From: a virus
Virus record (IMG/VR): IMGVR_UViG_3300026292_000004
Coordinates: 1 to 64,000 of that record
Reading direction: 5' to 3' (one strand)
DNA length: 64,000 nt
Below, piece after piece: positions 1 through 59,500 of this stretch. The notes beneath the pieces are model-generated. The model was not told the origin of the DNA, made no database searches, and was given only the letters and a program-made list of their open reading frames with translations. Numbering within the stretch: position 1 is the stretch's first letter; every line of letters starts with the position of its first letter. The translations under genes and the position numbers were made by a program.

Positions 1-1162
1 ACTCTTTTCCGTCTGCTAAATCAGGACGCATCAGTATAGATCTGTTACCTAATGCTCTGGGACCTAGTTCACCATGTCCTTGATACCATCCAACAATTCT
101 ACCATCAGCAATATACTCAGCAACCTGTGTAATAGTTTTAGGTGATGGTCTCTCAGCAGGTGCTTCATCATCTTGCCAGAATGGGAATCCACTTCTATCA
201 AATTCAGGTTGCTTCCACTGTCTTCTTAACCACTCAACTATACCAAGTGTTAGACCTTCATCAGCACAGTGTGGTATAATATTTAAGTTTGGTCTTACCT
301 TTTTAATCTTAGAATTTACGATAGTATTGAGAGCAACCCCACCACTGTAGAGTATAGTGTCATTAGGTCTACTACTCTTTACGAAATGATTTACAAGAGT
401 ATCTTCTGTAACACTATGACAGAATTGAATTTGATCTAGTACCTTATGATCTTCTTCCTCACCTTGGTGTATTAAACGTTCAATATATTCTAGGTTCCAT
501 AGATCCCTTATACCTTCAATACCCATATCATAGGTATGACATTCTAATTTAGTTTTTTCTAAACACTCAGGTGTCAATCTACCATAGGCTTTTAATGCCA
601 TGACTTTACCTGCCATGTCATGTGGACTACCTTGTAACTTTAATATATGACCACCAAGATCCCCTAACACTCCACCAAAACTAGGTGCATCATTAGTAGT
701 ATATCTTTGAAATCTTTCATCACCATGATATGCAGTGAAGGTTATCTTATCATCACCAAATCCATCATACACAAAATTAACATCCGATTCAATACCAAGT
801 GGCCATGCACTTAGCATATGAGCATAGTGATGATCTATTCTATAGATGGGACAGTCATACCCAATATCTCTGAAGACTGGTATTTCAATTTGTTCAAATA
901 ACTTCTTCTCGTCTGTCTGTATCCTTGGGTACATATGACAGTCTAATACTATACCAATAGCATCAACGTCTTTAGGATCAAAAGTCTCTCCAGTTCTACA
1001 ATATGAATAACGCTCTAGACTATGTGCCCACGATGTTAAATCCTGTGGTGCATAATGCTTTTGTTGCAAATCTCTTTCATGTTTATAGTACCATACCTTA
1101 TCATCAACAGTATAAGTGATACTACTATCATGGTCACATAATCTTAATCCTAAGAAGTTCAT
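1..1162 (-). CDS. Carbamoyltransferase (NodU/CmcH/TobZ family), 3' end runs off the window
   Basis: Not in the ORF track. Read manually from ATG at 1162: [17 protein letters not shown]... Contains [41 protein letters not shown] and [20 protein letters not shown], which are hallmark motifs of this family. Confidence 0.9.
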
Positions 1163-18289: not shown

Positions 18290-19096
18290 TTAACCTACAA
18301 GATCTAGTGGTGGTATTTCATAACGATCTCTAATCTCTTCTTCCAACTGGACTTTACGAGTAGATGCATCTTCTAAGATCTGACGACCATTGAGTGTTAC
18401 ACCACCTAGCATTTGAATGCCATCATACTTACTTAGGTTACGACCCCACTGTTGCATGAAGATCGCTTCACAATAATCTTTTAACCAGTTGTCATTATAA
18501 GAAGAAGTAAAGATTTCAGTATCAGTTCTCATAGTACAGTCAACTAAAATATAGTTACCTACTGTGAGTTCATCCCAACTAAAGTCAAGGTATAATTTAT
18601 TCTCAACCCTATTGTATCTAATTCTACGATTAGCACGAGAGTTAGTTACCCAATCAAGTGTCTCAAGATATTGAGAAACCATATAATAATGTAGGATTTG
18701 AGAGTTCGTGAATGCGTAAATATCATTCAAGAAAATCTGGTACTTAATGTTAAACATGTTACCAGGTACTACGCTACTGCTACTTAAATTAGCATACACC
18801 TGATTAATTCCTACCACGCCAGGAGGTAGATCAATACTAAGATTATTCTTCTTCCAGTCAGTTCCAGTTATGTCTGTACTGCCCATTGCAGAAGTCTTAA
18901 TAGCTTCAGTAACCTCAATCTTAATCAACTGTTTATCAGAACCATCGTAATGATATTCTTGCCAATAGTCAATCGCTTCTTCCACTAGGTCATCCAGCTG
19001 CTCATCACATACATTGATGTCAATAGCAGGGTATCCTAATCTACGAAGAGCATAGTTTTTTAACTCAGTTTTAGTGGCAGGTTTTGTAGCAGACAT
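18290..19096 (-). CDS. gp13: Neck protein
   Basis: LKNYALRRLGYPAIDINV, QQWGRNLSKYDGIQMLGGVTLNG. Confidence 0.97.
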   Translation of the reverse strand: MSATKPATKTELKNYALRRLGYPAIDINVCDEQLDDLVEEAIDYWQEYHYDGSDKQLIKIEVTEAIKTSAMGSTDITGTDWKKNNLSIDLPPGVVGINQVYANLSSSSVVPGNMFNIKYQIFLNDIYAFTNSQILHYYMVSQYLETLDWVTNSRANRRIRYNRVENKLYLDFSWDELTVGNYILVDCTMRTDTEIFTSSYNDNWLKDYCEAIFMQQWGRNLSKYDGIQMLGGVTLNGRQILEDASTRKVQLEEEIRDRYEIPPLDLVG

Positions 19097-19102
19097 TTTT
19101 TA

Positions 19103-22100
19103 TTAAGCGAATGAGGATATAGTCAATGTAGTTACATCGTTAGCAGCAACAGCTTCTCCAACTTTGAAGAATCCATCAACATTATCAACAGTAATTAAAC
19201 TTGTACCCATAGCAGTGATAACTCCAGTAGTACCAGAGGTTGCACCAGTTACGGTTGCACCAACTTCCATCGTTGTGATATCGGATAGTGCGAAGGTAGC
19301 ATGAGTATAGGTAGTTGCGATATCAACCGTTGCGTTAGCAAAGATTGTTGCAACATCAATAGTTGAACTATTACCATGAATAGCAGATACAGGTATCGTT
19401 GCACTGTTACCATGAATTGCAGAAACTGGAATCGTTGCTGCACTACCATGAATAGCACCCACAGTTAGGGTAGCACTGTTACCGTGGATAGCACCAACAG
19501 TAGTTGTTGCATTACCATGAATAGCAGCAACACCAGTAATTGAGTTACCATCTCCAGATCCAGAAATTGTGATCGTGTCAGAAGCAGCATATCCAGTACC
19601 ATCATTATTAATTGCAATACCAACTACGTGTCCAGATCCATTGGTAGTAACGTCAAGAGTCAATCCAGTACCAGAGTTATTAGTAGTTGTAGCAACACCA
19701 GTTATAGTTTGACTAGCAGGGTATCCAGTACCAGCGACCATTATTGAATTAAGAGTCTTAACACCAGATGCATTAGCATTAGTTAATGTGATTGTATCTG
19801 ATGCAGCATAACCAGAACCATCGTTAACGACAGTCATTCCAGTTACTCCACCAGATCCATTAACAGCAACAGTAACTGTTAATCCAGTACCAGAACCTCC
19901 AGAGGTTGTATTAACTGTACCAGCAGAATAACCTGAAGCAGCAGAAACAATAGAACCAAGTGTATTAACACCAGTTGCATTAGCATTGGTGATTGTCAAT
20001 GTATCACCATTAGAATAATTTATACCATCATTATTAACTGCTACAGCAGTTACTCCACCAGATCCATTAGCTGTAATGTCAACAGTTAAACCAGTACCAG
20101 ATCCACCCGTTGTAGTTGCAAGTGCAGAACCAGTAGAGTATCCAGAACCAGCAGCAGTAACAGTACCAAGTGTATTAACACCAGATGCGTTAGCGTTAGC
20201 AATCGTAATTACTTCAGATGCAGCATATCCTGATCCATCGTTGTTAATTGAAACACCGTCAACAACACCGTTAGTAACAGTAACGTTAACAGTTAGACCA
20301 GATCCAGAACCAGATGATGTCGTATTTAGAGCAGTACCTGAACCGTATCCAGTACCACCTGCACTAATTGATCCTAGAGTTTTAACTCCAGATGCATTAG
20401 CGTTAGTGATTGTTAAGACTTCAGAGTTAGCATAACCAGAACCATCATCATTGATAGTTACTCCAGTTACAGAACCTGAACCATCAACTGTAATGTCAGC
20501 AGTAAATCCTGTACCAGATCCAGATGCAGTTGTTGCAATTGCAGATCCAGCAGCATAACCTGTTCCAGCAGTTGCTATAGAACCAAGAGTTCTAACACCT
20601 GTTGCATTGGCATTGACAATAGTGATTGTATCATCTACTGCGTAACCAGTACCAGCAGCGTTAATAGCAGCGTTAGTTACAACACCATTAGATGTTGTGA
20701 GGTTTAGAGTTAATCCTGATCCACCACCTCCAGTAGTTGCAATAGCAGTACCGTTTGCGTATCCTGTACCACCAACAAGAGTATCAATAGTAGAAGCACC
20801 ACCAGCGTTAGCATTAACTATAGTGATCGTCTCTCCGTTTGCATATCCTGTACCAGCAGCATTAACTGAAAGGTTGGTGATGTTACCATTTCCATCAACG
20901 GTAGTGTCAAAGGTTAATGCAGATCCACTTCCACCAGTTGTAGAAACGTTAGTACCAGAAGTGAATCCACCAACTCCACCTGATAATGTACCCAAGTTCA
21001 AGGTAGAAACACCACCAAGGTTAGGGTTAGTAATTTGTAAACTATCTCCGATTAAGTATCCTGTACCAGCACCATTTACAGCAATGGCAGTTATAGCACC
21101 AGCAGCACTTACTGTAGTATCAACTGTCAATCCAGTTCCAGTTCCACCAGATGTGGCAACTGCGGATCCAGCAGTGAATCCACCAAGACCACTAGCAGTA
21201 ATTGATCCAAGACTTACAACAGTTCCTGGTGTAGGATCTCCAGATAAGTTAAGTGTTAATGTTGTTGCAGTAGCAAGGTTATTCAACATAGCACTAAGTT
21301 GTGCATATGCGTTGTCAAGTTTTGCTTGAACTCTTGCTTCTGTATAGTAAAGATTAGTTCCTTCAGAAAGATCAGCAGTATCATGGTTGCTGAGGTTTGC
21401 TGCTTGAGTAGCAGTTGCAGGAGTGATGTCAGCAGTACCATTAAAGGCAGTACCACCAATATTTCTTGGAGTTGCTAGAGCAGTAGCAGTAGCAGCATTT
21501 CCAGAGGTGTCCTGATTACCCGCTGCGTTAACGCCTGGAAGGTTAATTGCAGCAGTACCGTCAAATGATACCCCACCAATGTTTCTTGCCGTTGCAAGGG
21601 CAGTAGCGGTGTCTGCGTTACCTGTCACATTACCAGTGACATTACCAGTAAGAGCACCAGTTATAGTTCCACCTGCTTCAATATCATCCGTCCAGATCTT
21701 ACTCCATCTGTGAGTAGTAGTTCCTAAAGTATAAGAACTATCTGTATCAGGTCTAACATTCTTAGAATCAGTAGTTGTAGCAAGAAGATTACCAGTAACG
21801 TTACCAGTAACAGCTCCAGTTAGTGATGCTGTAATAACACCAGCAGCAAAGTTACCAGATGCGTCACGAATGACTAGGTTGTTTGCTGAGTTAGCAGAGT
21901 TAGATGTAATTGTAATACTTGGATTACCAGCAACACCACCACCGTTTGAAATACCAATACCACCACCAGATACCTGAATAGTACGTTGAGCATATGTGTT
22001 AGCAGCTGTACGGGCAACCAGACCTGTTCCACTCATTCCTGCCAAAGCAGTAATATCTGCGTCATTAAAGGTAGTAGTAACAGTAAAGTCTGCACTACCA

Positions 22101-25100
22101 TTTACAGAAACCGTACCATCTACTACACCATCAATGGTGAGAGTTCTAGCAGTTTTCCAAATATCAGCAGAAGTTGCGTTACCCTGAATACCAGCAGAAG
22201 CACCAGCACCACTTTCAACAGTGATGATGTGAGCAGAGAAGTCTCCAGAAGAGTCACGAGCAACAACTGTAGAGTTTGTAGCAGCAGTTGCAGTTGTCAT
22301 TCCATCTAACAAGTCTGCGTTAAGGTTAGCAATCTTGACTGTATTAGGAATAACTAAAGCAGGTCCAGAAGGAACTTGTGAAATTAATTGTCCGTCAACA
22401 GTAATAGTACCATCAACGTTTACGTTGTTATCTACATCAAGAGCAGTACCAGCACCAGTAATATTAACTGAACCAACCTGTAGAGTACCATCAGTTCCAC
22501 TGAATGTCTCAGCACTATTGGTTGCAGCAGTTAAAAGTCTGAATGTATTAAGGTTGTTATCCCATCCAAAGAATCCAAGTCTTGCTTGAGAATCATAGTA
22601 TCTAAACTCAATACCACGATCTAAACCATCATTAGAAGTAGGAGCAGTAGCACCACCCAAAGTCATTACAGGGTCTTCTACCGTAGTGACAGTACTTTCT
22701 ACTGTGGTAGTAGATCCTAATACGGTGAGGTTTCCACCTACTTGGAAATTATTTCTTACTTCAGCATTACCTGAAGATGTATCTACAAAGAAACTATTCT
22801 GAGTTCCAACAGTATCATATACAACAAAGTCTCCACCAGTATAGAGGTTCTTATTTACTCTCGCACCACCAGTAGTTGTTAATGATACCTGAGCATCACC
22901 ATAGGATGTAATATCCTTAGTATCTGTAATGGTAATCTTACCAGCAAATGCTGCATCATCAGTCTGAGTTAAGGTTCCTGTAGTTTCTAGGTTACCATAA
23001 ATTCTTGCACTACCACCAATAGCAGTGTCTCTAGCAATACCAACACCACCAGTTACTTGTAATGAACCATCAGCAGCATAAGATCCTGTTAAGGTTTGCT
23101 GTGTGTTGTTAGTAACAGATGTAATACCAGTAACACCTAGAGTGTTGTTAATACCAGCAGCAAGAGATACGTCTAGTGTACCTGAAATAGTTGTATTACC
23201 ATTATCTGTGTCAACAGTAAACTTATCTACTGCACCAGCAGTCTGAATCTTGAACATCTTGTTGTCAGACTTGACAATAAGATCATCTTGGATAGTTGTA
23301 GCACCATCTACATTTAAAGTAGTGTCAAAGTCAACTGCATCCTGACCATTCAGTGTACCTTTAATAACTGTATTACCAGTTGAAGATGCAACTGTAAATT
23401 TATCAGTTGTACCTGATCTAACTGCAAAGTTATTATCTACATCTACAGTTCCATTGAACTCTGAATTATTTGTGACTTCTAATGTTCCACCAATAGTTGT
23501 ATTACTATCAACGTTAAGAGTTGAATTTAACTCAGTGTGTCCATCAGCAGTTAGAGTACCCTCAATATTAGTATTACCAGTTACGTTATCAACGAAGAAC
23601 TTATCAGTAGTACCGTTGCGAACTGCAAAATCAGCATCTACATCAACAGTACTGTTAAATTCTGTAGCACCAGTTACAGTTACGTCACCATCTATCTGTA
23701 CATCTCTACCAAGAGTAGTATCACCATGAACTGTGAATGTACCTACAGTTGCTGAACCAGTTGCAGATCTACCAACAGTAGTATTACCAGTTGCACCAAT
23801 TACTTGGAACTCAATATCGTCTCCACTATTCTTCTTACCAATAAAGAGACCTTCACCAGAACCAGTAGCACCAATGAATAGTGAGGTGTTAATACCAGCA
23901 CCACCATAGACCCTTAAGTTAGATGTGTTATGGTTTGAATAACTTGGAGTGTATGCAGAAACAGAACCAGTACGTAGTTTATAACGTATTGATAGGTAGT
24001 TTCTTAGACCGTAGTTTTCAGTTGCGTCTTCTTGCTGGTTAAAGTCACCGTTTAGATATAAGTCACCATTAAAGAGAACGTCTTTATCAAAGTATGCACC
24101 ACCATCTACTCTCAATGCACCGTAGTCAGAAGACCCAATTGTATGTGGAGCACCAGATACAATATTAGGATTGTCTGTAGACTCAAGATAAACCAGACCA
24201 GCTACATTTAAACTAGAAGCAGCATCAATAGCACCAGTCTGAGTTAAGATACCACCAATATCAACATTACCTGTGGTAGTATGAAGTGTAGTCTTAGTAG
24301 TTCCTGAACCATTCTTAAGTTCTAAAGTCTTAGAAGCACCTTGGAATACGATATTATCATCAAATCTACTTGTACCGTGAGTACGGAAGTTAGTATCTAC
24401 ATCTAAAGTACCACCAATATTAACATCATCTCCAATACCAGCACCACCAGCAACTACTAAATCTCCAGTAGTATTTGATGTTGAGTTAGTATTAGTTGTT
24501 AGACTTAAGTTACCAGCGATGATCCCTGCATTTGTTCCAGTGAATACCTCTGAGGTATTTGTGGCATCGTAGAGGAATGTGAACGCTCCTGTATGCCCTC
24601 CAAGATCTGAGGCCGAATCATCGTAACCAAAGAATCCAACTTTTGCGCTTGCGTCGTAATATCTGAATTCAACTCCTCTATCCTTATTGTCGTCTGCCGC
24701 AGGAGCAGTATCACCACCAAGAGTGATAATAGGGTCATCCACTGCAAGAGTGGTAGAATTAACCGTTGTAGTTGTTCCATCTACTTGTAAATTTCCTTGT
24801 ACTACTACCGTTCCAGTGACCGCACGGTCATCACCTGGATCCAAATACATTGTTGCATTGGAAGTAGCAATATAATTTGATTGGAATCTTGAATCTTCTA
24901 TATGAACTTTACCAGTTGCTTCAGTAGCATCAATAGTTACAGTATCTTCTGCTTGAATAACAACACTACTTGTTCCAGCACCAGCATTAAGGGCAACAAG
25001 TGTTAGGTTTCTAGCACTACCACTGTTCTGAGACAGACCAAGAGTGAAGTTTCCATCACCTGTCTTACTTATTGTTTGATTAACTGCACCATCAAATGTT

Positions 25101-26461
25101 ACGTCAGGGTCACTGAAGTAAGATCTGACGTTAATATCAATTTCTCCAGCACCACCGTCACCAGTATTATTAGCACCGAATAGAAGATTCCCTGAAGTAT
25201 CGTTAATTTTAACATAGTTTAAATAATCAAATCCATGATGTGAACCTGCTATTGTTAACTCTTGATCTAGTTCAAAATTCTGTTGTGTATTATTGTCAGA
25301 GAATGATAATCTATTATTCTGAAGTTGAGTATTATCAATACCTTGAGCAGCAATGCTTACATGACCATTATCATCAACATCAAAATCTTCTTGTGCAAAT
25401 GAAGCAAGACCTTTTTGTTCTACCTTAGCAGCAGCAAGATATCTCCATCCATTAGTATCAGATGCATCTGTATGAGTTGGTGCTGCAACTCCAGCAGAAA
25501 TACCTGTAATTGCCTGATAAACCTTTGAAGCGTTCTCAATAATATCGTAACGCACATACGTAGTACCTGCATTGTAAGCAGCATACTTACTACCTTCTAT
25601 TGCAGTAGCAATAGGAATAGTTAATGCGGATGTAAATCTACCCCACTGATCAACTGTAAATTGTGTTGTGTTAACAGTTATATTTGCAGCAGTTGGAAGA
25701 CTATCTCCACCAACCGAAATTAAAGTAGATGGATTGTATACACCAACTTGTGCAATAAATTCTGCCTCTGATGCAATTGATGTATCAATAAGGTCAATCG
25801 TTGGGTTACCTGCAACACCACTACCATTAACAATAGATATCTTTCCAGAGGAACCCTGAAGGGTTCTAGGGATCATATTACCTGCTGATGCCCTAGTAAT
25901 CAAACCTGTTGCAGTCATTCCTGCAATAGATGTTAAGTCAGTATCTAATGGTTGTACGTCAGTTAAACCTAAATCTACATATGAAGAAGGTGAAGCACCT
26001 GTTGTAATTCTACCTTTTGCGTCTACTGTTACCTTTGAATATTGTCCTGTAGATGTTGTAGTACCATCATAATGTGGTAACGAAGTTAAGATCTGTAATT
26101 GTGCCGATATTGATAAGTTAGAAGATCCATCAAATGTGCCCGAACCTGCTAAGTCACTTGATAACTGTATCTGACGTGGGTTTGCTAGTCTAGATGCTGT
26201 AGCAGCATTACCAATAATAGTGGCGGTGATAGATCCTGCACTAAAATTACCATCTGCGTCTCTTGCTACAAGAGTATTTGCTGTGTTAGCAACTGACTCT
26301 ATCGGTCTAGCATATGGCAACGTGTTCCAACCCCTAACACCATCACCAATTTTGAATCGGTTTGTATCAAGTTCAATTCCAAGTTCACCTTGGGCTAACG
26401 TTGGGTTTTCGTTTGCCCACTCTTGAGCACCCCCTCGTCTTAGTTGAATTCTATTAGCCAT
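19103..26461 (-). CDS. Giant fibre protein (2,452 aa) in the wac/fibritin position
   Basis: N-terminal RIQLRRG..EW..NPTLAQGELGIELDT..FKIGDG fibre-anchor domain, GNA.TA..L.T.R.IGG shaft motifs, FxVD..TGNT.I.GTL repeats, C-terminal GTGY repeats. Confidence 0.9.
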   Translation of the reverse strand: MANRIQLRRGGAQEWANENPTLAQGELGIELDTNRFKIGDGVRGWNTLPYARPIESVANTANTLVARDADGNFSAGSITATIIGNAATASRLANPRQIQLSSDLAGSGTFDGSSNLSISAQLQILTSLPHYDGTTTSTGQYSKVTVDAKGRITTGASPSSYVDLGLTDVQPLDTDLTSIAGMTATGLITRASAGNMIPRTLQGSSGKISIVNGSGVAGNPTIDLIDTSIASEAEFIAQVGVYNPSTLISVGGDSLPTAANITVNTTQFTVDQWGRFTSALTIPIATAIEGSKYAAYNAGTTYVRYDIIENASKVYQAITGISAGVAAPTHTDASDTNGWRYLAAAKVEQKGLASFAQEDFDVDDNGHVSIAAQGIDNTQLQNNRLSFSDNNTQQNFELDQELTIAGSHHGFDYLNYVKINDTSGNLLFGANNTGDGGAGEIDINVRSYFSDPDVTFDGAVNQTISKTGDGNFTLGLSQNSGSARNLTLVALNAGAGTSSVVIQAEDTVTIDATEATGKVHIEDSRFQSNYIATSNATMYLDPGDDRAVTGTVVVQGNLQVDGTTTTVNSTTLAVDDPIITLGGDTAPAADDNKDRGVEFRYYDASAKVGFFGYDDSASDLGGHTGAFTFLYDATNTSEVFTGTNAGIIAGNLSLTTNTNSTSNTTGDLVVAGGAGIGDDVNIGGTLDVDTNFRTHGTSRFDDNIVFQGASKTLELKNGSGTTKTTLHTTTGNVDIGGILTQTGAIDAASSLNVAGLVYLESTDNPNIVSGAPHTIGSSDYGALRVDGGAYFDKDVLFNGDLYLNGDFNQQEDATENYGLRNYLSIRYKLRTGSVSAYTPSYSNHNTSNLRVYGGAGINTSLFIGATGSGEGLFIGKKNSGDDIEFQVIGATGNTTVGRSATGSATVGTFTVHGDTTLGRDVQIDGDVTVTGATEFNSTVDVDADFAVRNGTTDKFFVDNVTGNTNIEGTLTADGHTELNSTLNVDSNTTIGGTLEVTNNSEFNGTVDVDNNFAVRSGTTDKFTVASSTGNTVIKGTLNGQDAVDFDTTLNVDGATTIQDDLIVKSDNKMFKIQTAGAVDKFTVDTDNGNTTISGTLDVSLAAGINNTLGVTGITSVTNNTQQTLTGSYAADGSLQVTGGVGIARDTAIGGSARIYGNLETTGTLTQTDDAAFAGKITITDTKDITSYGDAQVSLTTTGGARVNKNLYTGGDFVVYDTVGTQNSFFVDTSSGNAEVRNNFQVGGNLTVLGSTTTVESTVTTVEDPVMTLGGATAPTSNDGLDRGIEFRYYDSQARLGFFGWDNNLNTFRLLTAATNSAETFSGTDGTLQVGSVNITGAGTALDVDNNVNVDGTITVDGQLISQVPSGPALVIPNTVKIANLNADLLDGMTTATAATNSTVVARDSSGDFSAHIITVESGAGASAGIQGNATSADIWKTARTLTIDGVVDGTVSVNGSADFTVTTTFNDADITALAGMSGTGLVARTAANTYAQRTIQVSGGGIGISNGGGVAGNPSITITSNSANSANNLVIRDASGNFAAGVITASLTGAVTGNVTGNLLATTTDSKNVRPDTDSSYTLGTTTHRWSKIWTDDIEAGGTITGALTGNVTGNVTGNADTATALATARNIGGVSFDGTAAINLPGVNAAGNQDTSGNAATATALATPRNIGGTAFNGTADITPATATQAANLSNHDTADLSEGTNLYYTEARVQAKLDNAYAQLSAMLNNLATATTLTLNLSGDPTPGTVVSLGSITASGLGGFTAGSAVATSGGTGTGLTVDTTVSAAGAITAIAVNGAGTGYLIGDSLQITNPNLGGVSTLNLGTLSGGVGGFTSGTNVSTTGGSGSALTFDTTVDGNGNITNLSVNAAGTGYANGETITIVNANAGGASTIDTLVGGTGYANGTAIATTGGGGSGLTLNLTTSNGVVTNAAINAAGTGYAVDDTITIVNANATGVRTLGSIATAGTGYAAGSAIATTASGSGTGFTADITVDGSGSVTGVTINDDGSGYANSEVLTITNANASGVKTLGSISAGGTGYGSGTALNTTSSGSGSGLTVNVTVTNGVVDGVSINNDGSGYAASEVITIANANASGVNTLGTVTAAGSGYSTGSALATTTGGSGTGLTVDITANGSGGVTAVAVNNDGINYSNGDTLTITNANATGVNTLGSIVSAASGYSAGTVNTTSGGSGTGLTVTVAVNGSGGVTGMTVVNDGSGYAASDTITLTNANASGVKTLNSIMVAGTGYPASQTITGVATTTNNSGTGLTLDVTTNGSGHVVGIAINNDGTGYAASDTITISGSGDGNSITGVAAIHGNATTTVGAIHGNSATLTVGAIHGSAATIPVSAIHGNSATIPVSAIHGNSSTIDVATIFANATVDIATTYTHATFALSDITTMEVGATVTGATSGTTGVITAMGTSLITVDNVDGFFKVGEAVAANDVTTLTISSFA
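19277..19543 (-). repeat. Eight tandem 33-36 nt coding repeats (consensus SATIxVxAIHGN)
   Basis: Plus-strand units such as ttaccatgaatagcag recur; the translation shows 8 units of about 11-12 aa. Confidence 0.85.
19544..21226 (-). repeat. Eight ~70-aa coding repeats (VxTLGSI..GTGY...GSGTGLTV.....G.GY...DTITITNANASG)
   Basis: Visible directly in the translation of the 2,452-aa ORF. Confidence 0.9.
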
Positions 26462-34493: not shown

Positions 34494-36026
34494 TTAGAAT
34501 TCAATAACAACTTTAATGTCTTCAATCTGGTCGTTAGCACGAGAAATCGTACGTCTATTATCTATGTAGATAAGATTACCAGAGTTAGACTCTATCTCAG
34601 GTTTTGCATAACCAGAGGTAAATCTCATACCTAGGTCATATTCGGTGTTGTTAATAACACGAGAAGAGGTGTTAGGAACAGCAGGGAAGTTCACATCTGG
34701 GTCGCCAGAAGCACCAGACGAGGAACCTTGAATGGCATTAGAACCATCAAACTCGTTCAAAGAACCAGTAACAGCAGGGAAAATACCATCAACTCTATTT
34801 TGATAATACTTAAGAACCTTAGTTGTTGAGTTCCAAGAAATAACCTTACCAGTTGCAGTAACAGACTGACCACCCACAATACGAGTTTGTGTAATTGTTT
34901 CGTCAGGAATGAAGTTACCTTGGAAGGTTGTTGGGAAGATAACTGCTCTTGCAGCAGATAATGTTAGATCAGAAAGAAGTTCAGTAGTACCATACTTCTT
35001 AGGATTAGTGCAAAGACCAATACGACGATAATCGTTATCAATCGGGAAGTCTCCAGCACCTTCATCATATGATAGTTTAGCGTTAACCATAACACGGTAA
35101 GCACCCACTTCCACTACTGGGTCTTTACCATGACCACCTGGAGGTGGAATGATAACGTCAATTTGACCACCAGTTCCAGTACCAATACCAGAAACTGAGT
35201 TAACGGTTACTTTACCAAAGGAATATCCAGTACCACCAGATGTCACAGTAGCAGAAATAACACGACCACCATCAACCACGATGGAAACACGTCCACCAGT
35301 TCCATCTCCAGCAATCGCTACGTTATCATATGTACCATTGTTATAACCTGAACCAGATGAAGTAATGACAACAGTGTCAATTTCACCAGCAACAGCGTTA
35401 GAACTTACTGAAGCATCTGAGAATACAGGCATGTAATCAGCAGAGAAGAACTTCAGAACCTGTGCGACAGGAATAGTATACATATACTTCCAACGATACC
35501 CGTCAGAAGTAGTGATGATGGATGTAGAAGTACCAGTAGGTTCAATGGTAGAAGGCTTACCATTAGGGTCAGCAGGAGAAGTACCGTTATAAATGCACTT
35601 ATATACTTGGTAATTGGAGTTAACGACATAGAAGTCAGAGTCATACAACTTAGTAGCACCAGACGATGCTGTGTTAGTTGGTGAGTAGTCATGACGATAC
35701 ATGTCATAAGTATAACCCAAACCACCAGTAGTTTGTTCTGGGGGAATCCAGTCAATACGACGTACGACTTGAATCGTGTCAGCAGCAAGAACACGCTTCA
35801 ATGACATCATATCATCGTAAGCATCAGAGAACTCATCAAATGAGTCTACCGCTTGCGGCGGTGAGTTTTCGTTGTCCCATTCTTGGGGACGACCAATAAA
35901 GATGTATAGACGATCTCTATCATCACCCGCAGTTGTGTCACTTGCCAGAGGATCTGGTCCTTCTAGTGACTTAATAAACTTCTGGGCTGTAAATATTCTA
36001 AATTGATCAGTAAGTAGTGCTGCCAT
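34494..36026 (-). CDS. gp8: Baseplate wedge subunit
   Basis: ALLTDQFRI, LYIFIGRPQEW, DFYVVNSNYQVYKCIYN, DGYRWKYMYTI, SGNLIYIDNRR..R..DQIEDIKVVIEF. Confidence 0.95.
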   Translation of the reverse strand: MAALLTDQFRIFTAQKFIKSLEGPDPLASDTTAGDDRDRLYIFIGRPQEWDNENSPPQAVDSFDEFSDAYDDMMSLKRVLAADTIQVVRRIDWIPPEQTTGGLGYTYDMYRHDYSPTNTASSGATKLYDSDFYVVNSNYQVYKCIYNGTSPADPNGKPSTIEPTGTSTSIITTSDGYRWKYMYTIPVAQVLKFFSADYMPVFSDASVSSNAVAGEIDTVVITSSGSGYNNGTYDNVAIAGDGTGGRVSIVVDGGRVISATVTSGGTGYSFGKVTVNSVSGIGTGTGGQIDVIIPPPGGHGKDPVVEVGAYRVMVNAKLSYDEGAGDFPIDNDYRRIGLCTNPKKYGTTELLSDLTLSAARAVIFPTTFQGNFIPDETITQTRIVGGQSVTATGKVISWNSTTKVLKYYQNRVDGIFPAVTGSLNEFDGSNAIQGSSSGASGDPDVNFPAVPNTSSRVINNTEYDLGMRFTSGYAKPEIESNSGNLIYIDNRRTISRANDQIEDIKVVIEF

Positions 36027-39000: not shown

Positions 39001-39496
39001 TCTGTTCAGGAACATCTTTACCACCACGATAAACTATCGTATGAGAATATGTCTGACCAAAAATATTATTGTTATTAAATGTACTAGGAAATACTCCTGT
39101 CCTAGCAGGATCTGGAAGATTGTTAGATACTAGTGTTAACCTATCTCCAGCAAATGCTCCTGTAGTAATAGATGCAGTTGTACTACTTAAAATACTTCTG
39201 ATATCAAAAGAATCGTTGGTTAAGTTATCATCCTGTTTTGCTGTTATAACAACACGCAAAGGATCATACCCTTTACCACCATTTAATACTCTTACATGAA
39301 CAACCTTACCAGCTTCTATTATTGGATATAATATTGCTTCAATCTCTGGTGTACCACAATTAGTGATATCTAACTTAGGTGGATCTGTAGCAACATAGTC
39401 TTTACCACCGTCTTTAACGACAACAGCATCTACACCAAAGTCTTTATTAAAGATTGGTGTAATAACTGCTCCAGATCCAGGTATTGTTCTCGTCAT
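36059..39496 (-). CDS. Virion structural protein with a degenerate YHYH domain, an inserted cupredoxin-like domain and G.GY...P.I repeats
   Basis: GHSKVLG.SYDGYPIYGPFGY and GDLDEHNGRYCVTPEYPNGTYAYF; YFCYMHPNMG; repeated V..GG.GY...P.I...GGGG.GA. Confidence 0.85.
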   Translation of the reverse strand: MTRTIPGSGAVITPIFNKDFGVDAVVVKDGGKDYVATDPPKLDITNCGTPEIEAILYPIIEAGKVVHVRVLNGGKGYDPLRVVITAKQDDNLTNDSFDIRSILSSTTASITTGAFAGDRLTLVSNNLPDPARTGVFPSTFNNNNIFGQTYSHTIVYRGGKDVPEQNNPNRLPEQVGLLANGSPLISPDAGSDGTPPVGFNFDQIKINYRDHDAYHGYPNNDHLYLFQDAKVVDSFAAANSLFTIKTYYNETNFGGDKSRHTNGHSKVLGISYDGYPIYGPFGYTTPLDDQSAIKRIDTGYRFKTGVEIDGNRVGINTPTNTTYVVTTANSKFLLDGVVAPIELINRGDTVTFNLDDASNDGHVLLLTDFAGETDKQGWHADSQTLYDQDVLYERGVKYYINNAEVTYSQYVSNYTSATNRKLVITVPWFAPANLHYFCYMHPNMGNKTNILNYPAGTFISDYIWDVTEGDLDEHNGRYCVTPEYPNGTYAYFMTTAADGTPEYPYAIGNTYYGDVVRKGANPPVQASEVPSGARAEVVLSETNAGQVEYVKMIAGGDGYFGEARADILGGEGTGATAIPVTQSISGLSLDNPGSGYITPPTLFFQGGGGQDAEGVANIDYSGIVTNIAVTNPGRFYQEPPYIYIQGGGGVGARATARIDQGEVVGIDVIDPGRGYTSSPNIIFTKLVNVKRKVRNRQSYNAASFFVTGLQKSLDTNDEEVVVDSTDAYPGSGKFMIGKEIIEYTSKNTKKFLGCTRGTNFRYDQRVIVDGIQNVDGVSTYEFNVGDRLVRKVESASNKIAKVYDWNPVSRELLIVFQVDELAFIDAGIPSTSDRTVAFDGGTPNASNNTQLPHNIIDEVGSNIVVYQLTLTDKAFEDDAEASGAGDGIPDVFNTGTDYADQINLDGGIHSSLYGIEETVGGQNTTIFAIGDQVKDASIPFKYSTVESAGALRDGVEHTARIRVTLATTDTNSIAFVVGETVTGQSSNIQATVESWEQATRTLVLINPLPYFTNNLNLGTNGYFYEFSDDSTVTEVRVLEPGLDYTATPTVVIENSGEIQAQAVVNMTSDGDQVGSLTVTNGGYGYKKVVTAGTLHPTVTFTNAGIDTTGSGAVAEVILGGEKLVGAGGASWRIKRITYDTSIRND

Positions 39497-41580: not shown

Positions 41581-44500
41581 TTATGGGGCGGGTGTACTTG
41601 ACCATATGCTTGTTACAGCGAAGGTTCCAACTGTAGTACCTGTACCCGCTGGAGATGATCCTTGTCCAGGAATGTCTCCACTGTCCACGTTGGCAAGATT
41701 TTCGGGTGTTACATTAATAACATCAGTATCAACAACCTCTTCTTTATAAAGAGCTTCTTCACCGTATGCACTGAGATCTGGAGCAGTCCATTCATCAGCA
41801 ACCACGTTAGTGATAGTAACACCAGGATAATTATAATTTGAACCAGGGGCGGTTGTATCTACACGAGAAACACCAACCAGTGCTTTAACTGCACCATCAA
41901 AACCAGATGCACTGTCAACACGGATAACTGGACGTGCGCTGAATCCAGATCCAGGATTGGTTACCTGAACAGAATCAATTCTATTCTTAACGATAGCAGC
42001 ATTACCTTGAGCATCACGACCAAATACAGATCCGATATACTCAAATGTTACTAGTGTATTAGAAGATTCAATGACAGCAACTTCTCTATCTTCAGTCTCA
42101 CCTTGAATGTCTAAGAGGTCACCTGCCTCAATTGGAGGAACAATCTCAGACTGCGTAACGTCAGCATCAGAACCAATGTATGCGAAACCAACGAATGTTG
42201 ATCCTACACGAGGAGTTTCTTTGAAAACGACACGAGAACCAACAAGTTCAAAACCGATTCCAGGTTGCTGAATAACACCGTTAAGCGAGATAATGATGTT
42301 GTTGTCTGCGATAATAGACTCAGTTGCCTGTACACCTTCAGTAAGTGCGATAGAGTAGAATGTACCGTCACGCTTAAGGTTGAAGGATGATCTCAATGAG
42401 TCAAACTCAAATGATATGTCATCCAACTGACGCATCTTACCTACGTAGAAACCAGTGAAGGAAGAACCAATGGTAGGTGCTTCGTTGAACTGTATGATGT
42501 CAGAGAATGCTGTGTATGAACCAGCCGCGCCTGGAGGTTGTAGAATACCATTCACAAAGACCATCATGTGACCTTCAGGATCTGGGAAGTATGGAGTACC
42601 GTTTTGCTCAGTTAGTTTGAACTGTGTTTGTGTACCATCAAATCCAACGAACCAACGCTTAGTACGTCCTACGACATCTATCTTCTCACTAGATGCTGCT
42701 TTATATCCATCATCAGAAATGATAGTATCATTTCCAGTAAATGTTCCAACAACATCACTTAGATACACACGATTTGTTAATCCAATTTCATCAATTCTAC
42801 TGACTGTACCGTAAGCAGTTGTAGTTGCGTTAACTGTAGTAGATACCTGACCATAAATTATTGGACTTGAAGTTTCACCTAATTGGTATTGACCAATATA
42901 TTGACCATTAGCGAATGCTGAAGATCCTATTGGTGACACGTACAAGTAATTATTTGCATCATCCCATCCAGTAACAATACCATATGCACCACCGTCAATT
43001 ATTGACTGATTATTGTTTGCTTGATAAACATACTGACCAACAGAGAAGTCAAGAGTTGCGTTAGCACCTGTGAGAGTAACACCTAAGCGTGTGTAACCCG
43101 TAGCAACAACCTTATCACCCGTAGCAATATTTGCTGCTATTGAAGGATGCTTAGTAACATCTAAGTAAATTCTAGTAGCATCTGGGTAAACAACTGAATT
43201 CTCTTCAAATGCACCTACGACACTCTCAGTATCAATTGTAAGTTTACCACCAGTATTATCAAGAACTGCACCTTCATTCTTATTGAATGCTACGATATCT
43301 GCCTTAGCACCACTACTATAACCCTTGAATGAGTATCCTGCCTTCATCTCATTAACGAGATTAATAACTTGGAATCTATCAACGATAGTTTGAATACCCG
43401 CGTTAGTTAAAGTACCAACTTCAAATGTGATATTTGGAGCACCACCATTACCTAATAGTGCATCAGGAAGTGTTAATACATCACTAACACCATATCCAGT
43501 ACCACCATTAGCAATTGTAATATTAGCAGCACCTTGATCATCAACAGTTATGTTAAATGTTGCGTTAGAACCATTACCACCTGTAGCAGCGATACCATCG
43601 TAAGAACCTTGAGTTCTATTTACGTTAGCACCTGCATTTGTTAAGTTCGTAATAGATCCAACAAGGTTAGTACCACCTGCGAGAGCAGCACCAGAAGTTT
43701 GACCTGTAATTCCTAGGTATTGTGTGAATGTACCTGCACTGATTACAACGTCCATATAACGGAAGTTATCATCAGAAGAAGTAGCATAAACAACACCTGT
43801 TATAGCAGCGTTACCAGTGATTTGTATGATTTCACCTAAAGCGAAGTCTGCATTACCACCACCTAGAGTAACTTGATCTGCTTTGAAACTAAATCTCTTA
43901 AAGATCTTAGCAATTCTTGCTTCGTTACTTGTAACTTTCTCAATTTCAGCATAACTATCAGATCCAACAGCATAGAAGTGATCAGAACCAACTATTTTTT
44001 GTCCAAGTCCTACAGGAACGTTTCTAGTACCACCAGCCACGTACGTAGTTGTTGGAAGTGTTACACCAACATAACCAGTTTGTTGCTCATAGAAACTATC
44101 ATCTACAAGTTGTGACTTATAAAGTCTGATAGTATTCTTGATACGGAACATTACTTCAGGTGTATCATAGTATATGTTCAATTCTGGTTTGTAAGCAGGT
44201 ATTGTTCCAGAATCAGGAGCAGGATTAATCAAATTATTATTGAGTTGCTCCTCAACAAAGTCCTCAAATTTATCAAGAATATAGTTCTTAATATTAAATT
44301 CATCAGAGATATAGAACTTCTCACCAGCCTCAGACTGATAGATGTCTAGGAATCCCTTATTAAGTTTAGCACCCCAGATAAATGAACCCTTAGTACCATC
44401 ACCCTCAGAACCACCACCAGCTAAAGTACCAGTATTATTGAGCATGTATTCCTTCATAGTGATAGTAGAAATACCGAATGGAACACGAATTGTTATGAAT

Positions 44501-56500: not shown

Positions 56501-59500
56501 TCACTACGGATAATATCACCAGTTAAAATTAAACCATCAGGAGTAACTTTAGGTTCATCATATGCAAGTTTGTATAGACGAACTGTTTCTCCATCAATTA
56601 AATCGCCTGAGATGTTAGAGTAGTTAACAATGTGGTTACGAATATCTTCGTCAACTGTAAACGTACCAGCAGCATTATTATACTCTAGAATTAAGTTACT
56701 TACAACTTCAGAATTAGGGAACTTACTATTAAATTCAGTATTCTTATCATTAACATCAGTTAGTTGTAACTGAGTCTGTGAAACATTATCAAGAATAACG
56801 TTCTGGAAATTAATATTAGTAATTCTGTTGAATACTAATCCTTGGAAAGTAGATCCTTCAGAAATAATAACTTGGTTATTTGGTTCATTAGTTACAGGAT
56901 CTCTGTATGCAGAAATACCAATAACTTCAGCAACAATATTACTCTTCTGACCAATGATTATATCACCAATAACAATATCAAATAAACCAGCAGTAGACTG
57001 ATAAGTACCAGCAGTCTTACTTAATAATACAGTATCTCCAATCTCAATAGTTGTTCCAAAGACATTACTATCAGTTTGGTGACCTACAACAGCAGTTCCA
57101 TCAACACCTCTGTTAGCAGTAACAGTGTTACCAACTATAGTTGCCACCTCAAATCTCTCAGAATCAATCTGATAAACTCCACCAGTATTAGCAACAATAG
57201 TAACAGTAGCATCTTGATTACCACCACCACTAATTGTAATTACATCTCCAAGAGCATATCCTGTACCACGTTCCTTAATCTTAGTTGCAGTTATTACTCC
57301 ACTACCATCTGCATCAACAGTAACAGTCATTCCAGTACCAGATCCACCTGATGTAGATACACCATCAATATTATCAATGTATCCAGTACCAGCAGTAGTT
57401 AATGTTACCTTAGAAAGTGCATATCCAGAAGCAACATCAAATGTGTTACCAGATGCAGAAAGACCAGCAGGGATAGTAGTTAGAACCTGACCATTATCAC
57501 CTTCTAGGTTAACTCTTTCAATCTTAGCATTGTCCCCTCTAAGGTTCTCAATATCTTCTTTAAACTGGAATAAGTTAGTATTTGTGATAGGATCAATACT
57601 ATCAACGTTTGCAGTAAATCCTGTAGCAGATGAAGTGATAGCCTCACCTTCATATGTAAGAGTTGTAGCAGGATCATCAACCTGGAAAGGTTGACCAGCA
57701 GTAGTCTTATAATAGAAGTCAACAGTTGTTAAACCAGTAGCAACAACAATTGCCTCATAATCAGTTATAATACCTCTAATAGTACCACCTACAAGTGGGA
57801 AAATACCAGAAATAGTACTTAAATTCGCTCTATAAAGAGTTTTAAACTCTAATGTAGCATTTGAATACTGAACATTAGCAGGAGGTTGAGGTGGTGATGA
57901 GAATACAACATTTGATCCCTGAACAGTAAATGCATCTCCAGGAGACTGTACAATACCATTCAAACTAATTAAGAGTTGATTAGCAGATGCAATAACAGGT
58001 TCTGTTACAACATTACCATCTTGGTTAATATTTTGAACAGTCAATCCAAATGAGATCTTCTCGCCATCAAACTGATCTGAAATATCATTAATCTTCTGAA
58101 CAGTAGAAGTTAGAATCTGCTCGGAAGAAGTCAAATTCTTCTGTCTGAAACGAACCTCAGTGTTATCAAATTCAGTATAAACTGGTTCAACTAGAGTAAA
58201 GTTCTGTAGATTTGGAACAATAGCAGATTCTGCAAGGTTAACTGACTTAGTAAGTTCAAATGCAGTCTCTTTGTTCTCAATAGTTGATTTTTCAACTAAT
58301 CCCAATTCACCAAATACCTTAAATCCAGCAGGGTGAACGTTAGTAATAAGGATGTCTCTCCAGTCAGATATTGAAACAGGAGCCTTAACACTATAGGAGA
58401 AGTCCTGATAGAAATAAGAGTCTTGAATCTTCTGAATGATTTCTGAAGGTTTACCTACATCATCAACGAATCTACCTGGAGTTGTAGTGATAGCACCAAC
58501 TTCTAGGACACCCTTAGCAATACTAAAGTTATCAATTGTACCAGATGCCTTGGAAATAGTACCAGTAACAATCTGATTCTTACTAAATGTACCAGTATAA
58601 TCAACAATCTTAAGAATTCTAGGTCCAATTTGCCAACCATCATTCTCTGAAACGTATCCAGTTGCAGTTGCATTTTCTAATGTATCACCTTGATAGATTA
58701 ATTCACCAGCAAGGAAACGACCAGTAACAACGTTTGCAGTAGCAGCACCACCGAATGAATCTGTTAAAACGACCTGTCTACCAGTACCAGCATTAGTATA
58801 TGAAATATAATCACCAATTGCAGCATTATCTTTAGTAATTGCTAAACGCAATTGATCATTTTCTAGTGAATTACTAATACCAGAAATAGCATAATATGTT
58901 GTATTGGCATTCAATCTACCGAAAGATGAGATTGGTAGTTCTGGATCATCTCCACTACCATCATCATTAGAAGTTAATGTTACAGCAGAACCATTTACAA
59001 TACCATGTGGGAACGAGAATTGTAGTAAATTAAGGTCAAGGTTAACAACATAGTTAAAGGATGACTTCAAAGTTACAGCAGGTTGTGAGGAGTAACCTGC
59101 ACCTGGATCCTTAACTTCAATAGCATCAATACGTCCGTTCTTAATAGATGCCTCAGCAGTTGCTCCTGAACCTCCACCACCAGCAATAATAACAGCAGGA
59201 GGGGTAGCATATCCAGAACCTGGGTCAGTAACAGTAATACTATCCAGTATGTTTGTACTAGTTAACTGAACGTTGACTGGGAATGTGATTTCAGGACGTA
59301 ATGTATAGTCATGAGTATAATCAAAACCGAAGTTGTTGTTCTTAAGTTTCTTAATCTTACCGATCTTATCTGCTTTAACGAAGACAGATGCACCAGTTCC
59401 ATTTGGAGGAATAACAACAGTTAATTCTGCACCAGAACCAGTAAGTCCAGCACCTAAAATACCAGTGATAGACTCAATGTCAATAGTTGCAGTAGTATAA

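What the first reader, a model, noticed from the sequence alone, without database searches (positions are those of the whole stretch)
19277..21226. Matryoshka fibre tip: 8 incomplete domains followed by exactly 8 'return' strands
Seen: the C-terminus of the 2,452-aa fibre has 8 consecutive ~70-aa modules. Seven end ..TITITNANASG-like and the eighth ends TITISGSGDGN. Eight 11-12-aa units follow (SITGVAAIHGN, ATTTVGAIHGN, SATLTVGAIHGS, AATIPVSAIHGN, SATIPVSAIHGN, SSTIDVATIFAN, ATVDIATTYTH, ATFALSDI). An uninterrupted copy of the module in the giant gp7-like protein (~57190-57420) ends GTGYALGDVITISGGGNQD-ATVTIV, with a final strand the fibre modules lack. The five conserved AIHG strands come first and would match the five inner, most similar modules. 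The three divergent strands would match the three outer, divergent modules, as nesting predicts. The whole nest splits a small C-terminal domain (TLTLNLSGDP / TTMEVGATVTGATSG). Inference: the chain runs out and back, and the return strand completes each domain. This amounts to intramolecular strand complementation giving a double-tethered, possibly force-resistant rod. Its length can change only by paired duplication at two separate DNA sites.
Basis: partly seen in the sequence, partly recalled or inferred. Interest (0 to 1): 0.9.

Follow-up and report, generated by a model that had tools for sequence, protein, structure and literature searches.

The report
Nested-barrel tip of a cyanophage fibre
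The end of this marine cyanophage fibre seems to be built like Russian dolls: eight small incomplete barrel domains run outward, then the chain runs back and gives each one its missing strand. Fibres with one to eight layers follow the same rule, a repeat architecture I found described nowhere.

Summary
The 2,452-aa fibre ORF (19103-26461, minus strand) of a T4-like cyanomyovirus ends with 8 modules of about 70 aa, then 8 units of 8-12 aa, then a 57-aa tail.

The central interpretation is supported by comparative evidence:
- Counts: 151 distinct homologous C-termini carry 2 to 8 modules. In 150 the number of strands equals the number of modules, and two further proteins are 1:1. The two exceptions (4:3 and 4:6) are metagenome mosaics of balanced parents, joined in the innermost module.
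- Order: module types and strand types match in mirror order (MI 2.11 bits, against 1.14 for parallel order and 0.28 for random pairing).
- Residue coupling: Asp in the module's second GxGY loop tracks His of the AIHGN strand in 602 of 626 mirror pairs.
- Free-standing copies of the module in the giant baseplate protein carry a contiguous sixth strand homologous to the return strands.
- AlphaFold2 of a natural two-layer homologue has pLDDT 87-96 across both modules and both return strands. Structural alignment ranges indicate two six-stranded barrels, the outer one discontinuous.

Limits: AlphaFold2 failed on the window's own eight layers (pLDDT 44). Cis versus trans pairing within a trimer, force resistance and the 'split C-terminal domain' remain untested. 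The claim that length changes only by paired duplication is too strong, because the tip layer is contiguous DNA.

The parts
19103..26461 (-). Fibre gene, 2,452 aa. It has an N-terminal Mtd_N domain and belongs to phrog_697 (structural protein). It is the orthologue of the P-SSM4 and S-TIM4 'YadA domain-containing structural protein'.
21218..21346 (-). Predicted helix (EARVQAKLDNAYAQLSAMLNNLATA) followed by the conserved entry strand and linker TTLTLNLSGDPTPGTV, just before module 1 (aa 1706-1748).
   Evidence: The helix is predicted in both AF2 runs. The LNLSGDPTPG anchor is invariant in alignments A1 and A2.
21008..21217 (-). Module 1 (aa 1749-1818), the outermost layer. Its inferred partner is strand 8.
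   Evidence: HMM hit E 1e-23; mirror pairing
20798..21007 (-). Module 2 (aa 1819-1888). Its inferred partner is strand 7.
   Evidence: HMM hit E 1e-24
20597..20797 (-). Module 3 (aa 1889-1955), the 'xxTIDTLVGGTGYANG' type. Its inferred partner is strand 6 (ATIF type).
   Evidence: HMM hit E 6e-23. This module type co-occurs with the aromatic strand type in mirrored position and number.
19763..20596 (-). Modules 4-7 (aa 1956-2233), the canonical type with Asp in the NxDGSGY loop. Their inferred partners are strands 5, 4, 3 and 2 (AIHG type).
   Evidence: HMM hits E 1e-24 to 4e-30; Asp-His coupling; Mantel test
19511..19762 (-). Module 8 plus strand 1 (aa 2234-2317). This is the innermost layer and a contiguous complete domain, inferred to be the distal tip of the rod.
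   Evidence: It aligns end to end with the free-standing copies in the giant protein.
19277..19510 (-). Return strands 2-8 (aa 2318-2395): ATTTVGAIHGN, SATLTVGAIHGS, AATIPVSAIHGN, SATIPVSAIHGN, SSTIDVATIFAN, ATVDIATTYTH, ATFALSDI.
19106..19276 (-). C-terminal 57-aa conserved domain (TTMEVGA...VDNVDGFFKVGE...SSFA). It is inferred to sit at the base of the nest. Its fold is unknown.
   Evidence: It is conserved in all homologues. AF2 pLDDT is only 34-47 in the monomer. No family match was found.
57190..57414 (-). Free-standing complete copy of the domain (module plus contiguous sixth strand ATVTIVA) in the giant baseplate protein.
43399..43662 (-). Second free-standing complete copy in the giant protein. 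It is of the 'SRTxGTY' tip type, followed by the strand APNITFEVGTL.

Best explanation
The fibre's C-terminal 700 aa form a recursive domain insertion. The building block is a small six-stranded beta-barrel of about 82 aa, made of two halves of the form strand-GxGY-strand-Gly loop-strand. In the fibre, each module except the innermost has only the first five strands. After strand 5 the chain passes through a short NANASG linker straight into the next module. Only the last module (M8) is followed directly by its own sixth strand, so it is a normal contiguous domain and forms the far end of the rod. From there the chain runs back and lays one 11-12-residue strand into each open barrel in reverse order (S2 into M7 ... 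S8 into M1). It ends in a conserved 57-aa domain next to the helix where the nest began. Shown here: the count rule, the mirror-order correspondence of types, the Asp-His coupling, the homology of return strands to the sixth strand of free-standing copies, and a confident prediction for a two-layer relative. Inferred: that the same holds for all eight layers of this protein, that pairing is within one chain, that the result is a stiff rod whose length is set by the number of layers (roughly 3-4 nm per layer, judged from the 11-12-residue return strand), and that the contiguous tip layer is the exchangeable host-contact cassette.
For: Count rule. Of 151 distinct complete C-termini drawn from 120 database proteins and about 200 IMG/VR loci, the module:strand counts are 2:2 (27), 3:3 (30), 4:4 (31), 5:5 (29), 6:6 (24), 7:7 (3) and 8:8 (6). 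Two 1:1 forms also exist. On a quick tree built from the flanking parts, the layer number changes up to 31 times by parsimony, and at least 6 times.

Mirror order. After unbiased clustering of modules and 11-mer strands, the mutual information between module type and strand type is 2.11 bits for mirror pairing. It is 1.14 for parallel pairing, 1.30-1.37 for pairings shifted by one, and 0.28 +/- 0.02 for random pairing. Architectures read as mirror images, for example BCDDA against cgfea and BCDAAF against cbbaad.

Residue coupling. Module column 49 (Asp of NxDGSGY) against strand position 9 (His) is among the strongest couplings (1.01 bits, second of all column pairs). The D-H state agrees in 602 of 626 mirror pairs, against 156 for parallel pairing and 378 and 400 for shifted pairings. 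In the window, modules 4-8 have Asp and strands 1-5 have His.

Within the window protein alone, module-module identity correlates with partner-strand identity at r = 0.82 in mirror order (0 of 5000 permutations reached this) and 0.28 in parallel order.

Free-standing copies at 57190-57414 and 43399-43662 align through the sixth strand.

AF2 of the two-layer homologue L092 has mean pLDDT 77, with residues 41-205 at 87-96. Each module contributes five strands, and the two return strands are E183-189 and E193-200.

VIA-align matches six-stranded barrels (T4 gp18 domain I at Z 5.1, EF-Tu domain 2 type, GcvT C-terminal type) to model residues 110-189, which is M2 plus the first return strand. The same GcvT-type barrels also match model ranges 31/41..199 with only 70-78 aligned residues, which is M1 plus the last return strand.
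Against: AF2 on the window's own 748-aa C-terminus gave pLDDT 43.7 and pTM 0.27, so there is no structural statement for the eight-layer protein itself. I could not inspect contacts in the good model. Pairing there is inferred from alignment ranges and from high pLDDT. All VIA Z-scores are at or below 5.1, a level the tool itself calls common. Type-level MI and Asp-His agreement are inflated by shared ancestry and by the block arrangement of types, and the shifted pairings still reach 60-64% agreement. Two mismatched sequences exist: P0050 (4:3) and P0234 (4:6). Sixteen five-layer proteins carry an Asp module paired with a Phe strand. Phage fibres are usually trimers, and a monomer prediction cannot tell cis pairing from trans pairing.
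Confidence: 0.75

Rival explanations
1. The out-and-back topology and one-strand-per-module rule are the same, but pairing is in trans. In a trimeric fibre, each return strand closes the barrel of a neighbouring chain, giving a domain-swapped, interlocked bundle.
For: A predicted helix with a coiled-coil-like sequence lies directly upstream. The C-terminal 57-aa domain is poorly predicted as a monomer, as an oligomerisation domain might be. Phage fibres are generally trimeric, for example the T4 gp37 needle (PMC6957217). All the counting and covariation evidence fits trans pairing as well as cis pairing.
Against: AF2 closes both barrels confidently within a single chain. The innermost layer, the 1:1 forms and the free-standing copies are contiguous cis domains.
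Confidence: 0.12
2. The modules are self-sufficient domains. The return segment forms its own trimeric core or needle, with the AIHGN histidines binding metal on the axis as in T4 gp37. Counts match only because the returning chain has to span the same length.
For: One histidine recurs every 11-12 residues in the first five strands. The gp37 needle holds seven iron atoms bound by histidines of the three chains, and by my own recollection (Bartual et al. 2010, not fetched) its chain also runs out and back (PMC6957217). An 11-12-residue extended strand is about as long as a 70-aa domain.
Against: There is no HxH motif, and the outer strands and all two-layer fibres have no His at all. The strands are homologous to the sixth strand of free-standing copies. 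Strand type tracks the type of the mirror-partner module, including Asp-His, which a mere length match does not predict. The AF2 monomer integrates the strands at pLDDT above 90.
Confidence: 0.07
3. The equality of counts is inherited or accidental and has no structural meaning.
For: Many of the sequences are close relatives from similar ocean samples.
Against: The equality holds at eight different depths and across up to 31 inferred changes of depth. The only two violations are mosaics of two balanced parents.
Confidence: 0.02

Closest known systems
T4 tail sheath protein gp18 (nested domains I-IV)
   Same: Domain I is inserted into domain II, which is inserted into III, which is inserted into IV. 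[quoted passage not shown]
   Different: gp18 nests four unlike domains once. Here one and the same domain is nested in itself to a variable depth of 1-8, and the host domain is always cut before its last strand. The match is weak and shows fold class only.
T4 long tail fibre tip gp37 (needle domain)
   Same: It is a phage fibre tip with regularly spaced histidines (PMC6957217). By my own recollection (Bartual et al. 2010, not fetched), its chain also runs to the far end and back, so that the C-terminus lies near the start.
   Different: gp37 is an interwoven trimeric needle without globular modules, and its His residues bind iron on the axis. Here there are globular barrels, single His residues coupled to an Asp of the partner module, and no sequence similarity.
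Tandem beta-zipper (bacterial fibronectin-binding proteins on fibronectin F1 modules)
   Same: A string of short peptide motifs adds one antiparallel strand to each of several consecutive small modules (PMC4412574).
   Different: That is binding between two proteins, and the strand is added to a sheet that is already complete. Here it would be within one protein, and the strand is an original part of the fold.
Donor-strand complementation in chaperone-usher pili
   Same: A domain lacking its last strand is completed by a strand supplied from elsewhere (my own knowledge, not tested here).
   Different: The pilus strand comes from the next subunit and builds a polymer of Ig-like domains. Here the donor is most likely the same chain and the fold is a six-stranded barrel.
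Pilus adhesin RrgA and similar nested-domain adhesins
   Different: Those have two or three unlike domains at fixed depth, with no array of return strands.

Membership tests
Nested (recursive) domain insertion | The sequence of a host domain is interrupted by a complete guest domain, and the host's remaining part follows the guest. | tested here: met
   In the AF2 model of the two-layer homologue, M2 plus strand y (model 110-189) is contiguous. GcvT-type barrels align to 31/41..199 with only 70-78 residues, which is M1 plus strand z. This is a prediction, not a solved structure.
Nested (recursive) domain insertion | One displaced host segment is present for every guest layer. | tested here: met
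   Module count equals strand count in 150 of 151 distinct C-termini at depths 2-8, plus two 1:1 forms.
Nested (recursive) domain insertion | Displaced segments occur in reverse order of their host domains. | tested here: met
   Mirror pairing gives MI 2.11 bits against 1.14 for parallel pairing. Asp-His agreement is 602/626 against 156. The Mantel r is 0.82 against 0.28.
T4 gp37-type iron-binding needle | His-x-His motifs that bind metal on the trimer axis. | tested here: not met
   The strands carry a single His (AIHGN) or none. The two-layer fibres have none.
T4 gp37-type iron-binding needle | Sequence similarity to the gp37 C-terminal region. | tested here: not met
   No Pfam or PDB sequence match was found for the C-terminal region.
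EF-Tu domain 2 / GcvT C-terminal type six-stranded beta-barrel (fold class) | A closed six-stranded barrel that superposes on solved members. | tested here: inconclusive
   VIA-align Z is 3.3-5.1 with rmsd 2.8-3.5 A over about 73 residues. Foldseek gave nothing at E <= 0.001.
YadA-like adhesin (the database name of the orthologues) | A match to the YadA head, stalk or anchor Pfam models. | tested here: not met
   A Pfam scan of the whole protein at E <= 1 finds only Mtd_N and a sub-threshold NAGLU_N hit.
Mtd_N-headed phage fibre (PF18454) / phrog_697 | An N-terminal Mtd_N domain and a match to the PHROG profile. | tested here: met
   PF18454 matches at E 9e-13 over aa 5-42. phrog_697 matches at E 0 and 2875 bits.

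The most novel reading that the evidence does not exclude
This is a previously undescribed class of repeat protein: a homotypic, depth-variable 'matryoshka' in which one barrel domain is inserted into itself up to eight times. Its length is tuned layer by layer. Its far-end layer is a single contiguous DNA cassette flanked by repeats, so that phages can swap the host-contact tip or change reach by simple recombination. Mismatched products are purged because an unpaired module cannot close. The three nests of a trimer may project from a foldon-like C-terminal clamp at the end of the coiled coil.
Probability: 0.45. Interest if true: 0.9.

Novelty: new variant of a known kind. Interest (0 to 1): 0.8.

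Why it matters
Nested domain insertion is known as a rare, fixed feature of a few proteins. Here it appears as a repeat-building principle with a simple rule of one return strand per module. The rule holds across more than a hundred natural variants at depths of one to eight.

If confirmed, it would add a new topology to the catalogue of repeat proteins. It would also give a natural series of rods of graded length for folding and mechanics studies. Finally, it would explain how an abundant group of ocean phages can vary the reach and the tip of a fibre. In S-TIM4 the orthologous gene is the most frequently mutated gene during adaptation to new hosts (PMC6224464).

The module has no Pfam family, although about 4,900 sequence clusters carry it.

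Tried and rejected
- AlphaFold2 of the window's own last 748 aa with a 44-sequence alignment gave pLDDT 43.7, so nothing can be read from it.
I had prepared outer modules M1-M3 against the last three strands plus the C-terminal domain (alignments A3 and A4). No trimer or split-chain test could be run.
The contigs behind the two mismatched sequences could therefore not be inspected. The listing of cluster members gave only contig lengths.
- Foldseek against the PDB found no hit at E <= 0.001.
- Foldseek against BFVD returned only relatives and unnamed phage proteins.
- A profile search of PDB sequences found nothing relevant.
- Pfam finds nothing on the modules, on the C-terminal domain or on the module-bearing parts of the giant protein.
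- ESM Atlas on the last 65 aa returned only unnamed clusters.
- My first regex count of strands undercounted some variants (AQFALADI, VLHGN). My length formula overcounted 11 two-layer fibres that have a SNPGSGG linker. Both were resolved by eye.
- I looked for a zero-module form that would show the C-terminal domain unsplit and found none. The short hits are mostly gene fragments.
- I searched the supplements of PMC6224464 for the positions of its mutations. Only one cluster, near S-TIM4 100215-100308 and upstream of the nest, could be placed.
- Literature searches for a prior description ('nested domain' with tail fiber; cyanomyovirus cryo-EM fiber) returned nothing relevant.
Full report
**What the window is.**
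The window comes from a T4-like cyanomyovirus (Kyanoviridae). The C-terminal 719 aa of the fibre find 155 phage records, all of them Synechococcus or Prochlorococcus phages. The DNA is about 73-78% identical in parts to P-SSM4, P-RSM3, P-SSM7 and S-TIM4. The gene (19103-26461, minus strand, 2,452 aa) lies between large baseplate-region genes and the homologues of the neck genes gp13 and gp14, as in P-SSM4 and S-TIM4. Pfam sees only an N-terminal Mtd_N domain, and PHROGs places the protein in phrog_697, 'structural protein'. The orthologues are named 'fiber' or 'YadA domain-containing structural protein', but no YadA model matches here.

An HMM built from four of the protein's own modules and iterated on homologues finds eight consecutive modules at aa 1749-2307, with E-values from 6e-23 to 4e-30. 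Modules 1-7 end in an N(P/A)N(L/A)xG linker, and module 8 ends ISGSGDGN. Eight units of 8-12 aa follow at aa 2307-2395, the first five with AIHG. A 57-aa tail comes last. The short array is visible at DNA level, with periods of 36 and 33 nt. The module recurs as a single copy in the giant baseplate protein at 57190-57414 and 43399-43662, in the gp8-like protein, and as half-repeats in the 1,145-aa protein.

**Anatomy of the module.**
Each module reads strand-GxGY-strand-Gly loop-strand, then strand-GxGY-strand. That is two and two-thirds of a threefold pattern repeated twice, or five strands. The two free-standing copies in the giant protein continue with a Gly loop and a sixth strand...ITISGGGNQD-ATVTIVA and ...GNGGAPNITFEVGTL. 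A profile built from 'innermost module plus first strand' of 78 fibres aligns to both copies through that strand, reaching profile position 77-78 of 83 at E 2e-12 and 6e-12 (alignment A5). The return strands are therefore homologous to the sixth strand of the complete domain.

**Test 1: do the counts co-vary?**
I collected 120 homologous proteins and about 200 IMG/VR loci. I counted modules with the HMM, and strands by length and by eye. Among 151 distinct complete C-termini the module:strand counts are:
- 2:2 in 27
- 3:3 in 30
- 4:4 in 31
- 5:5 in 29
- 6:6 in 24
- 7:7 in 3
- 8:8 in 6

Eleven two-layer fibres carry an extra SNPGSGG linker that my length formula miscounted. Two further proteins are 1:1, a single contiguous domain between LNLSGDPTPG and xEMAVGD. 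On a quick tree of the flanking parts, the number of layers changes up to 31 times by parsimony and at least six times.

Two sequences break the rule.
- P0050 (4:3) is more than 95% identical to the balanced 4:4 protein P0376 until the last module, and from there on is identical to the 3:3 protein P0080.
- P0234 (4:6) is a singleton fragment on a 2.4-kb contig. It joins modules like those of four-layer fibres (the type of S-TIM4) to the tip and six strands of a P-SSM4-like fibre.

Both are mosaics joined in the innermost module.

**Test 2: is the pairing in mirror order?**
Modules and 11-mer strands were clustered without using position. Written as letters, the strand string read backwards mirrors the module string: BE/cb, BEA/cba, BEAF/cbad, BCDAA/cbbaa, BCDDA/cgfea, BCDAAF/cbbaad, BCDAAAF/cbbaaad and BCDAAAAG/cbbaaaaa. 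Where the 'D' module type is doubled, the aromatic strand type is doubled as well. Where it is absent, so is that strand.

- Mutual information between module type and strand type is 2.11 bits for mirror pairing. It is 1.14 for parallel pairing, 1.37 and 1.30 for mirror pairing shifted by one, and 0.28 +/- 0.02 for random pairing. The ranking is the same at two other clustering thresholds.
- Among the strongest column couplings (1.01 bits, second of all pairs) is the Asp of the second loop (NxDGSGY) with the His of AIHGN. The commonest pairs are (D,H) 169, (A,F) 89, (A,T) 53, (G,T) 48 and (G,A) 40.
- The Asp/His state agrees in 602 of 626 mirror pairs, against 156 for parallel pairing and 378 and 400 for shifted pairings.
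- In the window protein, modules 4-8 carry Asp and modules 1-3 carry Ala, while strands 1-5 carry His and strands 6-8 do not.
- Within this one protein, the matrix of module-module identities correlates with that of the partner strands at r = 0.82 in mirror order (0 of 5000 permutations reached this). In parallel order r is 0.28. Among the five inner layers alone r is 0.83. M4 and M5 are the most similar modules, and their partners S5 and S4 have identical 11-residue cores.

These measures are inflated by shared ancestry and by the block arrangement of types, so they rank the alternatives rather than give probabilities. There are also real exceptions: 16 five-layer fibres have an Asp module paired with a Phe strand.

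**Test 3: structure prediction.**
AlphaFold2 on the window's own 748 C-terminal residues failed, with mean pLDDT 43.7. A natural two-layer homologue (L092, 257 aa, 52-sequence alignment A2) gave mean pLDDT 77 and pTM 0.65. Residues 41-205 are at 87-96. This stretch covers both modules (five strands each) and both return strands (E183-189 and E193-200, pLDDT about 94). The 57-aa C-terminal domain is at 34-47.

I cannot see contacts in the model, but the structural alignments are informative.
- Six-stranded barrels align to model 110-189, which is module 2 plus the first return strand. They include T4 gp18 domain I (Z 5.1, rmsd 2.9 A, 73 residues), EF-Tu domain 2-type domains, and the C-terminal barrel of GcvT-like enzymes.
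- Other members of the same GcvT-type barrel align to model ranges 31/41..199 with only 70-78 aligned residues. These are 3tfh (Z 4.0, rmsd 3.4 A, 70 residues, 41..199), 6qe3, 2gag and 1pj5.
- A single 80-residue barrel spanning 160 model residues must skip the inner domain. It is therefore module 1 plus the last return strand.

The Z-scores are modest, and the tool warns that such values are common. They indicate fold class only. Foldseek found nothing in the PDB, and sequence profiles found no solved relative.

**Most likely mechanism.**
The tip is a recursive insertion of one barrel domain into itself, always between strands 5 and 6. The chain goes out through N open barrels and closes the last one directly. 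It then returns and closes each earlier barrel in turn. The C-terminus ends beside the helix where the nest starts.

Three consequences follow, all inferred.
- The rod length is set by N. An 11-12-residue strand spans at most about 4 nm.
- The far end of the rod is the innermost layer. This layer occurs in two or three alternative types on otherwise similar backbones (A/G type, or the 'SRTxGTY' F type, which also occurs in the giant baseplate protein).
- Because that layer is one contiguous DNA segment flanked by repeats, it can be inserted or replaced in one event. Changes deeper in the nest need matched changes at two sites. The co-similarity of M4/M5 and S5/S4 does show that paired changes happen.

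In S-TIM4 the orthologue (ORF108, four layers here) is a virion protein. It was the gene with the most mutations when the phage adapted to poorer hosts, and it shows intragenic recombination between repeats (PMC6224464). This fits a role in host contact, though the one mutation cluster I could place lies upstream of the nest.

**What remains open.**
- Whether pairing is within a chain or between chains of a trimer.
- Whether the His-Asp pairs are contacts or metal sites.
- Whether the 57-aa tail together with the TLTLNLS strand forms a split domain or a trimer clamp.
- Whether the rod resists force.

The complex predictor was not available.

**Comparison with known systems.**
- The nearest precedent is in T4 itself. 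In gp18, domain I is inserted in II, II in III and III in IV, and domain I is a six-stranded barrel (PMC3004832). That nest is made of unlike domains at a fixed depth.
- The gp37 needle has periodic His, but it is an interwoven trimer with axial iron and no modules (PMC6957217). By my own recollection, not checked here, its chain also runs out and back.
- The tandem beta-zipper of fibronectin-binding adhesins is the closest analogue for 'one short strand per consecutive module', but it acts between two proteins (PMC4412574).
- I found no description of a homotypic, depth-variable nest.
- The module family is large, with 4,857 cluster representatives at E <= 1e-3, and has no Pfam model. Elsewhere it occurs as ordinary tandem arrays with a period of about 78-82 aa, or as half-repeats of about 40 aa. 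The nested form is therefore a special arrangement of a common brick.

**Verdict.**
It is a new variant of nested domain insertion. Interest is high, and experimental structure determination is the missing step.

Noticed in passing
window 34494-36026 (-), aa ~216-290: The gp8-like baseplate protein (Pfam Phage-Gp8) carries one copy of the same module as an insertion (module HMM E 1e-7).
   Followed up: partly
window 36059-39496 (-), aa ~520-690 and ~1026-1106: The 1,145-aa YHYH-domain protein contains runs of the half-repeat (strand-PGxGY-strand-GGGG-strand) with a period of about 40 aa. This suggests the 82-aa barrel arose from a duplicated half.
   Followed up: no
window 43399-43662 (-): The giant protein's second module copy is of the same 'SRTxGTY' type as the alternative fibre tip layer seen in P-SSM4, S-TIM4 and others. 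This hints at exchange of this cassette between the baseplate protein and the fibre tip.
   Followed up: partly
P0050 and P0234 (metagenome proteins): These are the only two sequences with unequal counts (4:3 and 4:6). Each is a mosaic of two balanced fibres joined inside the innermost module. Whether they are chimeric assemblies or natural recombinants is unknown.
   Followed up: partly
P0229-P0375: The module family has about 4,900 cluster representatives. Some proteins carry up to 39 matched stretches. Spacings of about 78-82 aa (complete domains in tandem), about 40 aa (half-repeats) and about 70 aa occur. I did not check whether other families also nest.
   Followed up: partly
window 19106-19276 (-): The 57-aa C-terminal domain (VDNVDGFFKxGE motif) is among the most conserved parts of the region. 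It has no family match and is predicted poorly as a monomer. It may be a trimerisation clamp at the end of the upstream helix, like the foldon of fibritin.
   Followed up: partly
window 20076-20435 (+) and 20697-21329 (+): Long open frames lie on the opposite strand of the repeat region. They are most likely by-products of the Gly/Thr/Ser/Ala-rich coding sequence and not genes.
   Followed up: no
L028 and relatives (BCDDA type, 16 sequences): In this five-layer lineage three of the four outer strands have Phe where others have His, even opposite a module that keeps the Asp. This is an exception to the Asp-His rule and might mark a different packing solution.
   Followed up: no
window 18290-19096 (-) and upstream genes: The fibre gene sits directly before the gp13 and gp14 neck genes, the position held by gp12 and wac (fibritin) in T4. 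It is not settled whether this is a tail fibre or a neck or whisker fibre.
   Followed up: no
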